Source of the DNA: a virus
Direction: 5' to 3' (one strand)
DNA: 64,000 nt
IMG/VR virus record: IMGVR_UViG_3300045988_161200
Shown here in pieces: positions 57,300 to 58,640 of the stretch. A program made the position numbers and the translations under genes. The notes under the pieces were generated by a model. That model did not search any database. It was not told the origin of the DNA and saw only the letters and a list, made by a program, of their open reading frames with translations. Position 1 is the stretch's first letter, and the number at the start of each line of letters is the position of its first letter.

Positions 57300-57660
57300 G
57301 CGTTAAAATGGCGTGTGCGTGATTTATTGTTGTTTGATATAATTTTATTGATAAATGATAATTTATTATTGATATTCAATAATTGACGTTTACAATTTAG
57401 TAATAATTATGTAATTTGTTAGATGTATTTATATTGTGATATTGCATAGTTTTAGAGCGTGAAATTTGGCTATTTTGCAAAATGTGGGAGTGTATGAGCT
57501 GAGATTGTTATATACTAACGTTGTATATTTTAATGTGATAAAGTTTAGTTGATTAAAGTATAGTAATATGGTTATGTGGTGTAATTTATAGTAATGTGGT
57601 ATAGTTTAATGCTGTTATGGATTAGCGATTAGGAAAATAAGCTTATGTATTATGATATAT
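57300..57660. other. C-depleted, G/T-rich non-coding segment
   Basis: My hand count gives roughly 75 G against 16 C on the plus strand. Confidence 0.6.
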
Positions 57661-58080
57661 TATGATCTATTTTTTAAAATATCTCTTGTATGCTTTGATT
57701 TTCTTTTGTTTTCTCTTGTTTTCTTTATTATGCTTTGATTTGGTTTCAATTATTTAACACTGTTAAATAAATTAACAACGTTAGCGAACCACTAAAAATG
57801 ACTAATAGTCATTATCAAAAGTGACCGTTGGTCATTATTTTTGATGCAACCAGTAACAAAATCTAAATAACAAATTCAAGAAATGTTAATAAAATTAGCT
57901 TCAAAATTTATCAAGAAATGTTAGTAGAAGTATTTCTAAAATATGTCTGTCTATGTTGCTTTTGGGACAAAAATAACATAGGATCGGCAGTACAGGGGGG
58001 TGTATTTACATTTAAAAGTTTGTTAATATTTGTTCAAAAGAGTATAGTAGTTCCACTCAACTCACACGTCTAAAAATTCA

Positions 58081-58640
58081 AATTGACACTCATCTATAAT
58101 TTCTTTTTTCTTACAATCCATTCTCATAATCCAAAAAAATACTCCAAAAATATCCCCAAAATCATTCGATGCTATTCTTCGGCAGACTCCCCTATTTATC
58201 TCACTTACAGACCAACAATAACAACCTCAAAACACATCTATCTTAAGAACTCAAAATCCATACCAATACTGTACTTTCAGACAAACCACAGAACACTTTA
58301 CGCTCACTTTACCATCTCAAACAGCAAATTACCCTACCCATACAAACATCTCTCAAATCTAATCACAGAGCCTAATACAAGTATCTCAAAAATAACATTT
58401 CAATACTATATATCTATTCAGAATCAACTTAAAGATATAATTCATTCACCTCAGACCATACCTTAAACACTTCAAAAACTAACACAAAATCTAAATCGCT
58501 CAAATGCCGATAAAATCTATGCTTTCTCCGAATACTATAAAAATCAATCAAAAGTATCAAAGATCAAATCTATATTTAATATATCAGAAGTATCTTAAAT
58601 CAAGTAAACATCATAAATCCATAGAAATAAATCGAAGATC
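58081..58640. other. G-depleted, A/C-rich non-coding segment
   Basis: My hand count gives about 30 G in 560 nt. CTCAAA-type short repeats occur throughout. Confidence 0.65.

What the first reader, a model, noticed from the sequence alone, without database searches (positions are those of the whole stretch)
57300..58640. Abrupt inversion of G/C skew in non-coding DNA, with a 560-nt G-depleted segment
My hand counts on the plus strand give about 75 G against 16 C in 57300-57660, then only about 30 G in 58081-58640 although C is common there. The sign change happens within about 300 nt, around 57.75-58.05 kb. RNAs transcribed outward from this centre on either strand would be G-poor and A/C-rich. 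Inward transcripts would be C-poor and G/U-rich.

The G-poor segment also carries repeated (A/T)CTCAAA(A/T) words: 58239, 58251, 58316, 58351, 58385, 58473 and 58497. The only open reading frame there (58083-58466) exists simply because TAG and TGA cannot occur.

Such skew without coding constraint suggests selection on single-stranded DNA or RNA properties. Examples are an unstructured RNA or ssDNA, a protein- or RNA-binding sponge, origin unwinding, or avoidance of a G-dependent nuclease or restriction motif.
Basis: seen in the sequence. Interest (0 to 1): 0.65.

Follow-up and report, generated by a model that had tools for sequence, protein, structure and literature searches.

The report
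Skewed arms flanking phage genome ends
The G/C-skew flip is real and marks the genome-end (packaging / terminal-repeat) junction of an SPβ-like phage. Two non-coding arms keep a mirror-image base bias (one strand almost without G, the other almost without C) across relatives whose arm sequences are unrelated, a feature not described in the papers I could search and directly testable in Bacillus subtilis SPβ.

Summary
**Observation.** It is confirmed. On the + strand, 57302-57664 has G75/C15 and 58053-58549 has G25/C136. These are the strongest skew segments of either sign in the 64-kb window. They lie in an ORF-free 2.1-kb gap between divergent gene blocks.

**Conservation.** The layout is C-poor arm, neutral centre of about 250-390 bp, then G-poor arm. 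It recurs in all informative related IMG/VR contigs and in 26 metagenome contigs. It also recurs in SPβ, B. rugosus and B. pumilus prophages, a Lachnospiraceae prophage and Psychrobacillus phage Perkons. The arm sequences themselves are not alignable between lineages.

**Conserved core.** Only one short core is conserved, and it occurs once per genome: GGGGGTRTATTTACAT, about 30 nt, then ATAGYAG|TTCCA..CACAC. In Perkons, whose ends were mapped, this core spans the right edge of the 264-bp direct terminal repeat, and the G-poor arm starts exactly there. In SPβ the homologous gap holds the mapped pac / genome-opening site.

**Identity.** The locus is therefore the genome-end junction, at about 0.8 confidence.

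**Why the arms are skewed.** This is inferred, not shown.
- The outward-reading strands are the least foldable RNAs in the window. They are C-rich and G-poor, have no SD-like words and few start codons, which makes them rut-like.
- I favour Rho-type insulation of the two early operons, at about 0.4.
- The main rival is structure-free 3' single-stranded tails at the terminal repeats, at about 0.25.
- A replication origin, coding function, a motif array and a deamination footprint are disfavoured.

The parts
57233..57270 (+). Hairpin (GCCG...CGGCG) followed by TTTTGTTT. It is terminator-like and lies after the small RHH gene (56895-57077), just outside the left arm.
   Evidence: Energy-based scan gives dG -13.4. 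Equivalent hairpins are seen in other group-A loci, and similar ones further upstream in groups B/C.
57244..57286 (+). Two extended -10 elements: TGcTATAAT at 57244-57252 and TGgTATAAT at 57278-57286. They point into the left arm and are promoter-like only.
   Evidence: Read from the sequence and found by the promoter scan. Present in group-A relatives L005 and L025, not in groups B/C.
57302..57664 (.). Left arm, non-coding. The + strand is C-poor (G75 C15 A114 T159), so a leftward (outward) transcript would be G-poor.
   Evidence: top G>C segment of the window. The same position and polarity occur in all relatives. The sequence is not conserved between lineages. The outward RNA has MFE -0.044 kcal/mol/nt, the lowest foldability in the window.
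57665..58052 (.). Neutral centre with no G/C skew. By inference it contains the terminal repeat / packaging site. It includes T-rich 10-bp phased repeats (57682-57751), a palindrome (57750-57775), a compound hairpin plus T-run (57797-57838, group A only) and 35-nt direct repeats (57876-57945).
   Evidence: The centre is 343-390 bp in this lineage and about 250-320 bp in SPβ, B. rugosus, B. pumilus and L082. The measured DTR of Perkons is 264 bp.
57950..57982 (.). Conserved palindrome CTATGTTGC-loop-(G/T)(C/A)AACATAG, present in all three sequence groups. Its loop is inverted in one relative (L012).
57996..58067 (+). Conserved single-copy core: block 1 GGGGGTGTATTTACATTT (57996-58013), a variable spacer, then block 2 TATAGTAGTTCCACTCAACTCACAC (58043-58067). 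The predicted terminase cut / right boundary of the terminal repeat is at about 58048/58049 (+-5 nt).
   Evidence: The core is unique in the window and occurs once per contig in 28 viral and 26 metagenome contigs. It is conserved in SPβ (GGGGGTATATTTACATCT), B. rugosus, B. pumilus and L082 (nhmmer). It aligns with the mapped DTR boundary of Perkons.
58053..58549 (.). Right arm, non-coding. The + strand is G-poor (G25 C136 A199 T137), so a rightward (outward) transcript would be G-poor, C-rich and unstructured.
   Evidence: top C>G segment of the window. It is not coding. In 95% of 78-nt windows C-G exceeds 15%. There are 0 SD-like words and 4 start codons, against 49 on the other strand. MFE is -0.044 kcal/mol/nt. 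It begins within about 25 nt of the core in every lineage examined.
58774..58801 (+). Consensus sigma-A promoter (TTGACA-16-TGaTATAAT) of the rightward early operon, just beyond the right arm.
   Evidence: Scores 12/12 with a TG extension. A perfect equivalent lies at -377 to -464 from the gene start in all three sequence groups. SPβ has TAGACA-17-TATAAT right after its arm.
58852..58965 (+). Long, very stable hairpin in the 5' UTR of the 401-aa gene. It is context, not part of the skew.
   Evidence: 16-bp perfect arms. MFE -44.8 kcal/mol, z = -4.9. The arms are conserved in divergent groups.
59185..60390 (+). First gene of the rightward block: 401 aa, phrog_36702, function unknown. It was used as the anchor to find relatives.
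   Evidence: In relatives it lies upstream of the YonO-like RNA polymerase (PF05183), YonJ and HU-like genes.

Best explanation
**Identity (about 0.8).** The 2.1-kb gap is the genome-end junction of an SPβ-like temperate phage. It is homologous to the yonR-yonP gap of SPβ, where the pac / genome-opening site maps. It is also homologous to the short direct-terminal-repeat junction of phage Perkons.

- The neutral centre carries the packaging site.
- The conserved single-copy core (GGGGGTRTATTTACAT, about 30 nt, ATAGYAG|TTCCA..CACAC) brackets the cut that forms the right edge of the terminal repeat. In the window this falls at about 58049.
- The two arms are the unique DNA on either side. They fill the space between the terminus and the two divergent early promoters.

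**What is conserved in the arms.** It is composition only. The strand read outward from the centre has almost no G and about twice the local level of C.

**Mechanism (inferred, about 0.4).**
- Transcripts that leave the junction in either direction are G-poor and C-rich. They cannot fold and cannot be translated, because they have no SD-like words and almost no AUG, GUG or UUG.
- Such RNA is an ideal loading site for termination factor Rho.
- Each arm would therefore act as a hairpin-free terminator or insulator. It would stop transcription arising in or passing through the packaging site before it reaches the early promoters and lytic operons, for example in the lysogen.

**Shown versus inferred.**
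- Shown: the skew, its conservation without sequence conservation, its position relative to a mapped terminus in a relative, and the single-strand properties.
- Inferred: the physical ends in this particular phage, outward transcription, and any role of Rho.
For: **Identity.**
- Relatives encode a YonO-like RNAP 42% identical to SPβ YonO, plus YonJ and an HU-like protein, downstream of the gap.
- The SPβ yonR-yonP gap shows the same polarity (+0.33 then -0.57) and the same core motif.
- The SPβ pac / opening point was mapped to that gap (bioRxiv 10.1101/2021.11.22.469490; PMC8270828).
- Perkons has PhageTerm-defined 264-bp DTRs (PMC13245101). Its G-poor arm (G27/C131) starts at +256 of the 264-bp repeat, and the core aligns across that boundary.
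- The core occurs once per genome.

**Selection on composition.**
- The arms are unalignable between lineages, yet the skew and layout are identical in all informative loci.
- L007 carries an unrelated left-arm sequence with the same bias.

**Rut-like RNA.**
- Outward RNAs have MFE -0.044 kcal/mol/nt, and 0 of 318 reference windows are lower. Inward RNAs fold normally.
- C is 20-27% and G is 4-5%.
- C-G exceeds 15% in 95% (right arm) and 66% (left arm) of 78-nt windows, against 9% and 1.4% window-wide.
- There are no SD-like words.
- C is about twice its level in neighbouring non-coding DNA. Rho binding needs this; mere absence of structure does not.

**Outward transcription.**
- Promoter-like sites sit at the inner edges in groups B/C: TTGCAA-16-TATAAT (+) and TTGATA-16-TGATATCAT (-).
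- In SPβ lysogens the detected RNA ncr1052/ncr44 maps, after coordinate calibration, to L062 about 8207-8495 on the yonP strand. It covers the core and the start of the G-poor arm and ends where no hairpin terminator is possible (PMC2965217).

**Promoters beyond the arms.** Main early promoters lie just outside the outer edge of the arms.
Against: - No physical-end data exist for this phage. Contig ends do not pile up at the predicted cut.
- Outward promoters are weak consensus matches in AT-rich DNA and differ in position between lineages. Group A also has inward-pointing extended -10 elements.
- ncr1052 rests on 2 cDNA reads, and my coordinate mapping has about +-70 nt of slack.
- Arms of 200-700 nt are much longer than the roughly 80 nt a rut site needs.
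- Rho dependence is untested, and whether all hosts have Rho was not checked.
- In Perkons the C-poor block lies 294 nt from the repeat, not adjacent to it.
- In Perkons and B. rugosus the next strong promoter is 0.7-0.9 kb beyond the right arm.
- The mirror symmetry and the exact start at the repeat boundary are explained equally well by the ssDNA-tail rival.
Confidence: 0.45

Rival explanations
1. Structure-free 3' single-stranded tails. After injection, or after replication of the linear form, 5'->3' resection or incomplete lagging-strand synthesis exposes the 3'-ending strand at each genome end. This exposure runs beyond the short terminal repeat. The arms are selected so that these tails lack C and their complements lack G. 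The tails then cannot fold or cross-anneal outside the repeat. That favours correct annealing of the repeats (circularisation or concatemer formation) and clean gap filling.
For: - The polarity fits exactly. At both sides the strand whose 3' end points to the mapped terminus is the C-depleted one, in Perkons and by homology elsewhere.
- The G-poor arm starts at the repeat boundary.
- The centre length in SPβ, B. rugosus and L082 (about 255 bp) matches the 264-bp DTR.
- As ssDNA, both strands of both arms are at the extreme of low foldability: 0-1.3% of reference windows are lower.
- T7 also has a G-poor top strand (G28/C71) right after its left terminal repeat.
- An exonuclease-annotated YonJ is encoded nearby.
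Against: - Absence of structure would not require a two-fold enrichment of the partner base, because plain AT-rich DNA would do.
- In Perkons the 294 nt next to the repeat on the left side are unskewed, although they would be exposed first.
- T7 lacks the mirrored arm.
- SPβ is reported as pac/headful, where only one side of the cut becomes a virion end.
Confidence: 0.25
2. Mutational footprint. The skew is not selected. It is the scar of repeated single-strand exposure, by end resection or by heavy inward transcription, which deaminates C to U and A to hypoxanthine on the exposed strand, as in mitochondrial heavy strands.
For: - The transition spectrum is asymmetric in the arms. In the right arm C<->T is 97 against A<->G 35 (89 vs 27 in groups B/C). 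The left arm is mirrored (A<->G 51-66, C<->T 19-20). Control segments are balanced, and A<->T transversions are equal everywhere.
- In the window the C-poor strand is 64-67% G+T.
- The arms evolve faster than the adjacent gene: about 90% DNA identity where the protein is 100% identical.
Against: - The coupled AT skew that deamination predicts (T excess on the C-poor strand) is absent or reversed in SPβ, B. rugosus and B. pumilus right arms and in the group B/C left arm.
- GC content of the arms (25-34%) is higher than that of neighbouring non-coding DNA (19-25%), which is not expected from C loss.
- The edges are sharp at functional landmarks.
- The spectrum is also what purifying selection against one base would give.
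Confidence: 0.1
3. Replication origin or R-loop priming site. Inward transcripts are G-rich relative to C and would form R-loops over the arms. These R-loops would prime or open an origin in the centre.
For: - G>C in the direction of transcription favours R-loops (general knowledge).
- Inward-pointing extended -10 elements lie at the outer edge of the left arm in group A.
- The centre has T-rich 10-bp phased repeats and palindromes.
- A small gene hitting phrog_154, annotated 'replication initiation protein', lies 1.5 kb downstream.
- YonO lacks the lid that suppresses R-loops (PMC5467207).
Against: - The + to - sign change is the polarity of a terminus, not of an origin.
- The phased repeats, the central hairpin and the inward promoters were not found in groups B/C.
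- The only conserved element maps to a mapped DNA end, not to a known origin.
- G is only 21-27% on the 'G-rich' strand.
Confidence: 0.07
4. Functional long non-coding RNAs or a protein/RNA sponge encoded by the arms, as the reader suggested with repeated CTCAAA-type sites.
For: - CTCAAA occurs 6 times against 1.3 expected in the right arm.
- An RNA is detected over the start of the SPβ arm (PMC2965217).
Against: - No word is enriched in all lineages.
- There is no sequence conservation at all between lineages.
- There is no Rfam match and no conserved fold.
- The arms are mosaic and indel-rich.
Confidence: 0.05

Closest known systems
SPβ pac / genome-opening region (yonR-yonP intergenic gap of Bacillus subtilis phage SPβ)
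   Same: - It has the same position: a divergent gap upstream of the operon that contains the YonO RNA polymerase.
- It has the same core motif (GGGGGTATATTTACATCT ... CATAGCACTTCCA).
- It has the same skew polarity (+0.33 then -0.57).
- A sigma-A promoter follows the G-poor stretch.

Sources.
   Different: - SPβ arms are shorter (about 75-340 nt), and the left one is weak.
- SPβ packaging is described as headful from pac.
- In the papers I read, neither the core nor the skew is described. The review (PMC8270828) only notes that there is no similarity to the SPP1 pac.
Short direct terminal repeat junction of Psychrobacillus phage Perkons (264-bp DTR, PhageTerm-mapped)
   Same: - It is a YonO-type phage.
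- The G-poor arm (G27/C131, about 510 nt) begins at the right DTR boundary.
- A C-poor block (G32/C2) lies on the other side.
- A core-like GGGGGTATA ... CCACAC spans the boundary.

Sources.
   Different: - The C-poor block is separated from the repeat by 294 unskewed nt.
- The core is more diverged: TTTACAT is absent.
- The ends are mapped there, whereas here they are only inferred.
Phage T7 terminal repeat with flanking SRL/SRR short-repeat arrays (Dunn & Studier 1983, from memory; composition tested here)
   Same: A non-coding stretch lies between the left terminal repeat and the first early promoters. It is G-poor and C/A-rich on the top strand: G28/C71 over about 250 nt.
   Different: - T7's stretch is an array of CCTAAAG-type heptamers, whereas here no repeat unit exists.
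- T7 has no mirrored C-poor arm before the right repeat copy.
- The function of SRL/SRR is itself unknown.
Rho-utilisation (rut) sites of Rho-dependent terminators (e.g. lambda tR1)
   Same: The RNA is C-rich, G-poor, unstructured and untranslated.
   Different: - The arms are 4-8 times longer than needed.
- They come as a mirror pair.
- No evidence for Rho action was obtained here.
- There are no conserved rutA/rutB-like boxes.
Strand compositional asymmetry from single-strand exposure (bacterial leading/lagging skew, vertebrate mtDNA heavy strand)
   Same: One strand is depleted of C, and there is a strand-specific excess of one class of transitions.
   Different: - The skew here is local, with sharp edges (hundreds of nt).
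- It is far stronger (|skew| 0.6-0.8).
- The AT skew is not coupled.
- The polarity is that of a terminus.

Membership tests
SPβ-like phage packaging / terminal-repeat junction | Lies in the divergent non-coding gap upstream of the early operon that carries the YonO-type RNA polymerase | tested here: met
   The window gap separates leftward genes (up to 56814) from rightward genes (from 59185). In relatives with the same gap, the PF05183 RNAP, YonJ and HU-like genes follow 4-10 kb downstream. SPβ and Perkons have the same synteny.
SPβ-like phage packaging / terminal-repeat junction | Sequence homology to the site where DNA ends were experimentally mapped | tested here: met
   The core aligns with the SPβ gap motif (16 of 18 in block 1) and across the Perkons DTR boundary. 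The nhmmer profile hits B. rugosus (E 1e-18), B. pumilus (3e-11) and L082 (2e-3).
SPβ-like phage packaging / terminal-repeat junction | Single copy per genome | tested here: met
   One match in the window. One match per contig in 28 viral and 26 metagenome contigs.
SPβ-like phage packaging / terminal-repeat junction | Physical DNA ends (or the pac cut) of this phage lie here | not testable with these tools
   This needs virion DNA reads or restriction mapping. Contig ends gave no signal.
Rho-dependent terminator (rut site) | At least 70-80 nt of C-rich, G-poor, unstructured RNA | tested here: met
   C is 27.5% and G 5.0% in the right arm; C is 20.3% and G 4.1% in the left arm. C-G exceeds 15% in 95% and 66% of 78-nt windows. 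MFE is -0.044 kcal/mol/nt, the lowest foldability in the window.
Rho-dependent terminator (rut site) | Transcribed in the G-poor sense and not translated | tested here: inconclusive
   Untranslated: there are no SD-like words, 4 start codons and no conserved ORF. Transcription: only promoter-like sites and the SPβ RNA ncr1052, mapped by calibration.
Rho-dependent terminator (rut site) | Termination depends on Rho | not testable with these tools
   This needs a rho mutant or bicyclomycin transcriptomics. No such data for this region were found in the held literature.
Replication origin marked by a GC-skew switch | Skew changes from - to + (cumulative skew minimum) at the origin | tested here: not met
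   The change is + to -, a local cumulative maximum, and is confined to about 1.3 kb.
Replication origin marked by a GC-skew switch | Conserved iterons, initiator boxes or a DNA-unwinding element | tested here: not met
   The T-rich 10-bp repeats (57682-57751) were not found in groups B/C, whose only conserved segments are the palindrome, the core and the downstream hairpin arms.
T7-type SRL/SRR arrays | Tandem short repeat units flanking the terminal repeat | tested here: not met
   There is no tandem or dispersed unit in the arms. Only the location and the G-poor bias resemble T7.
Known structured non-coding RNA (Rfam) | Match to a covariance model or a conserved fold | tested here: not met
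   No Rfam match in the arms. The core has no covariation and a folding z of about 0.
Protein-coding gene (ORF 58083-58466) | Reading frame and codon-position pattern conserved in relatives | tested here: not met
   Frame-breaking indels, a flat substitution pattern and no family hits.

The most novel reading that the evidence does not exclude
The arms are a previously undescribed kind of cis-element that is encoded by base composition alone. It is a mirror pair of G-free (outward strand) tracts bracketing the terminal repeat / pac site of SPβ-like phages, maintained by selection while the sequence turns over freely. They work either as hairpin-free Rho-loading insulators or as structure-free recombinogenic single-strand tails. 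Both versions can be tested directly in Bacillus subtilis SPβ.
Probability: 0.55. Interest if true: 0.72.

Novelty: new variant of a known kind. Interest (0 to 1): 0.6.

Why it matters
**A defined candidate cut site.**
- The analysis pins down, by comparative sequence alone, a candidate terminase recognition and cut site for the SPβ family. This family includes a 50-year-old model phage.
- The SPβ review I read (PMC8270828) still describes the packaging mechanism as not elucidated and found no similarity to the SPP1 pac.

**A composition-only element.**
- A cis-feature conserved only as strand composition is invisible to homology- and motif-based annotation.
- If the arms are Rho-loading insulators, they would show how temperate phages with a pause-insensitive RNA polymerase keep lytic operons silent next to an active packaging site.
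- If the arms are structure-free 3' tails, they would show how short terminal repeats are made to anneal reliably.

**Practical uses.**
- The paired skew signature could be used to predict genome ends in uncultivated phages of this family.
- It suggests spacer designs that resist folding and translation.

Tried and rejected
1. **DNA similarity to annotated phages.** A search with the 2.2-kb gap found no match.
2. **Rfam.** Only sub-threshold chance hits, none in the arms.
3. **Coding function of ORF 58083-58466.** Rejected.
No word is shared and enriched across lineages. The strict pattern matches only 3 sites.
5. **Conserved RNA structure in the core.** No covariation and z about 0 on both strands.
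6. **Reiterated phage-specific promoter.** The core is unique in the window and unrelated to the SPβ yonN-yonK gap that holds the YonO start site.
7. **Intrinsic terminators to fix the direction of transcription.** A strong central hairpin plus T-run exists only in group A. None bound the arms consistently.
8. **Sigma-A promoter scans.** Too many chance hits in AT-rich DNA. Only positionally conserved hits were used.
9. **Geobacillus virus E3 and the Enterocloster phages as comparators.** Their organisation differs or the gap is AT-only, so they are uninformative.
10. **Core in reference bacterial genomes.** No exact match. Prophage relatives were found through the YonO protein instead.
11. 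**Pile-up of contig ends at the predicted cut.** None. One contig (L157) starts at the central palindrome about 270 nt left of the core, which is anecdotal.
12. **Restriction-site avoidance.** GC-containing palindromes are halved in the right arm only.
13. **Function of the 401-aa gene.** No Pfam or PDB hit. Structure prediction was not pursued, because the terminus homology settled the identity of the locus.
14. **Literature.** No description of such arms and no Rho data for the region were found.
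Full report
**1.
- On the + strand, 57300-57660 has G75/C16 and 58081-58640 has G32/C138.
- For 360-nt sliding windows the window-wide mean skew is -0.14 with SD 0.17. The two extremes of the entire 64 kb (+0.66 and -0.71) both fall in this locus.
- A maximal-scoring-segment scan delimits a C-poor left arm (57302-57664), a neutral centre (57665-58052) and a G-poor right arm (58053-58549). 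Each arm is the top segment of its sign in the window.
- The arms lie in a 2.1-kb ORF-free gap. Nearly all genes to the left are on the - strand, and those to the right are on the + strand.
- ORF 58083-58466 is not a gene. Close relatives carry indels of 1, 2, 7 and 8 nt, substitutions are flat over codon positions, and there is no family hit.

**2. The skew is conserved but the sequence is not.**
- The neighbouring 401-aa protein recovered 25 related IMG/VR loci at 46-100% identity.
- In every informative locus the skew minimum (-0.63 to -0.80) and maximum (+0.50 to +0.77) lie at the same offsets upstream of the gene. The three-part layout is the same everywhere: arms of 345-490 nt and 465-727 nt, and a centre of 343-390 nt.
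- The two groups at 66% protein identity share no detectable similarity with the window in either arm. Only a few islands align.
- Even among close relatives the arms are the fastest-evolving part, at 75-93% identity with many indels. They are also mosaic: L007 has an unrelated left arm with the same bias.
- No k-mer is enriched in all lineages. What is maintained is therefore base composition on a given strand.

**3. A unique conserved core sits at the inner edge of the G-poor arm.**
- Across the three groups the conserved elements are a palindrome (57950-57982), block 1 GGGGGTGTATTTACATTT (57996-58013), a variable spacer and block 2 TATAGTAGTTCCACTCAACTCACAC (58043-58067). The G-poor arm follows at once.
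- The core shows no conserved RNA fold.
- It is unique in the window.
- It occurs exactly once per contig in 28 viral and 26 metagenome contigs. All of these obey the same skew rule.

**4. The phage is SPβ-like.**
- The left block encodes Pol III alpha, DnaB, a ligase and an ExoV/Dda-type helicase.
- In relatives the right block continues into an 894-aa PF05183 protein that is 42% identical to SPβ YonO, the single-subunit RNA polymerase. YonJ, an HU-like protein, ClpP and PhoH follow.
- The same protein set occurs within 0.5-1.3 Mb scaffolds, so the phage is probably temperate.

**5. Homology with mapped genome ends.**
- *SPβ.* The divergent yonR-yonP gap shows the same polarity in miniature (+0.33, then -0.57). 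It contains GGGGGTATATTTACATCT ... CATAGCACTTCCA, followed by a G-poor stretch that runs up to the yonP promoter. Restriction mapping and read mapping place the SPβ pac / genome-opening point in this gap (PMC8270828; bioRxiv 10.1101/2021.11.22.469490).
- *Perkons.* This is another YonO-type phage, and PhageTerm defined 264-bp direct terminal repeats for it (PMC13245101). I rebuilt the concatemer junction. A G-poor arm (G27/C131) runs from +256 to +766, so it begins at the right boundary of the repeat. A C-poor block (G32/C2) lies on the other side. A GGGGGTATA ... CCACAC core spans the boundary.
- *Predicted cut.* Aligning the cores puts the equivalent cut in the window at about 58048/58049, 4-5 nt before the G-poor arm starts.
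- *Other prophages.* A core profile also finds B. rugosus, B. pumilus and a Lachnospiraceae prophage. In all of them the right arm starts within about 25 nt of the core, and the left arm starts 250-320 nt to the left, close to the Perkons repeat length.
- *Conclusion.* I conclude with about 0.8 confidence that the locus is the packaging / terminal-repeat junction, and that the arms are the unique DNA flanking it. The physical ends of this particular phage remain inferred.

**6. Why the arms are skewed.** The polarity rule is that the strand read outward from the centre lacks G, and the strand whose 3' end points to the terminus lacks C.

As RNA, the outward strands of both arms:
- are the least foldable 400-nt stretches in the window (-0.044 kcal/mol/nt; 0 of 318 reference windows are lower);
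- contain no SD-like words and only 4 start codons each;
- are C-rich, with C-G above 15% in 95% and 66% of 78-nt windows.

The inward strands fold normally because G-U pairs remain. As ssDNA, both strands are near-structureless. C on the outward strand is about twice the level in neighbouring non-coding DNA. This is expected for a Rho-loading (rut) tract, but it is not needed for mere lack of structure.

Evidence for outward transcription is limited:
- promoter-like sites at the inner arm edges in groups B/C;
- in SPβ lysogens, the detected RNA ncr1052/ncr44.

I placed ncr1052 with an offset calibrated on ncr1937. The offset was cross-checked against the published YonO start site, which then falls in the yonN-yonK gap as reported. 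The RNA maps to L062 about 8207-8495 on the yonP strand. It covers the core and the start of the G-poor arm and ends where no hairpin can form (PMC2965217, PMC5467207).

In groups B/C and in SPβ the main early promoters lie just beyond the outer edge of the arms.

I therefore favour, at about 0.4, the view that the arms are hairpin-free, Rho-type insulators. They would stop transcription leaving the packaging site before it enters the two early operons.

**7. Rivals.**
- *Structure-free 3' tails (about 0.25).* This model explains the mirror symmetry and the exact start at the repeat boundary equally well. It does not explain the C enrichment or the unskewed 294 nt next to the Perkons repeat.
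- *Deamination footprint (about 0.1).* It fits the asymmetric transition spectrum. It is contradicted by the uncoupled or reversed AT skew in several lineages and by the raised GC content of the arms.
- *Origin of replication.* The sign of the switch is wrong, and the repeats in the centre were not found in the divergent groups.
- *Motif sponge, structured RNA, coding and restriction avoidance.* None is supported.

**8. Comparison with known systems.** The closest known cases are the SPβ pac gap and the Perkons DTR junction. The papers I read on these do not mention the core or the skew.
- Phage T7 offers a partial analogue. The roughly 250 nt after its left terminal repeat (the SRL array) are G28/C71 on the top strand.
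- T7 has a heptamer array and no mirrored arm.
- I found no description of composition-only arms next to phage termini in the held literature.

**9. Verdict.**
- The feature is real and statistically extreme.
- The locus is a new variant of a known kind, a phage genome-end / packaging region. It carries an undescribed, composition-encoded pair of flanking arms whose mechanism can be tested directly in B. subtilis SPβ.

Noticed in passing
window 58806-59000 (hairpin 58852-58965): The 5' UTR of the 401-aa gene, downstream of the consensus promoter at 58774-58801, folds into a very long stable hairpin (-44.8 kcal/mol, z = -4.9). Its two arms are among the few segments conserved in the 66%-identity groups. 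It could be an attenuator, a processing site or a protein-binding site.
   Followed up: partly
window 57950-57982; L012 about 4637-4670: The conserved palindrome CTATGTTGC..GCAACATAG has its 13-nt loop inverted in L012 relative to sibling contigs ('flip/flop'). This is the signature of template switching or cruciform extrusion at this site.
   Followed up: partly
window 56702-56737, 56803-56819, 57437-57449: Operator-like repeats (AATTTGTGCAAT / ATTGCACAAATT) lie between the small RHH gene (56895-57077; PF10723 / Arc-like) and the leftward promoters. A further copy (TTGTGATATTGCA) lies inside the left arm. This is probably a repressor switch.
   Followed up: no
window 57797-57838: A compound palindrome (AATGACTAATAGTCATT / AGTGACCGTTGGTCATT) is followed by a T-run. 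It is terminator-like on both strands (dG -17 on +). It is present in group-A relatives only and was not found in groups B/C.
   Followed up: partly
window 56324-56379 (- strand): A sub-threshold Rfam hit to the type I hammerhead ribozyme (25.5 bits against a gathering score of 34, E = 0.0055), in the intergenic DNA left of the RHH gene.
   Followed up: no
L062 (SPβ) 12025-13705: The 1.68-kb yonN-yonK gap of SPβ is GC-rich (40-45%) and unskewed. It lies downstream of the mapped YonO start site (calibrated to L062 about 12374-12511). It is presumably the 'unannotated non-coding RNA' of Forrest et al. and may be a large structured RNA.
   Followed up: no
L027 (Thomasclavelia phage TR-TP2) 2636-5098: This cultured phage has an unannotated 2.46-kb gap. 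It holds an extreme GT-rich, C-depleted block (skew +0.80 at 3600-3900) and only a weak opposite arm. The flanking genes are co-oriented, so this is a variant layout of the same module.
   Followed up: partly
window 44996-46354 and 49497-50564 (- strand): Two paralogous genes (452 and 355 aa) both hit phrog_2598 and phrog_1583, families of unknown function.
   Followed up: no
L058 239-1252, L059 2419-3432 (relatives): The leftward early block of close relatives carries a GmrSD_N (type IV restriction-like) gene and variable cargo. The rightward block varies in ParB_N and methylase content.
   Followed up: no
L157 1-21 (metagenome contig ERZ1034678 NODE-2510): One whole contig begins exactly at the central palindrome TTATTTAACAGTGTTAAATAA (equivalent to window 57750-57770), about 270 nt left of the core. 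This is similar to the 264-bp repeat of Perkons. It could be a left repeat boundary or an assembly break at a palindrome.
   Followed up: no
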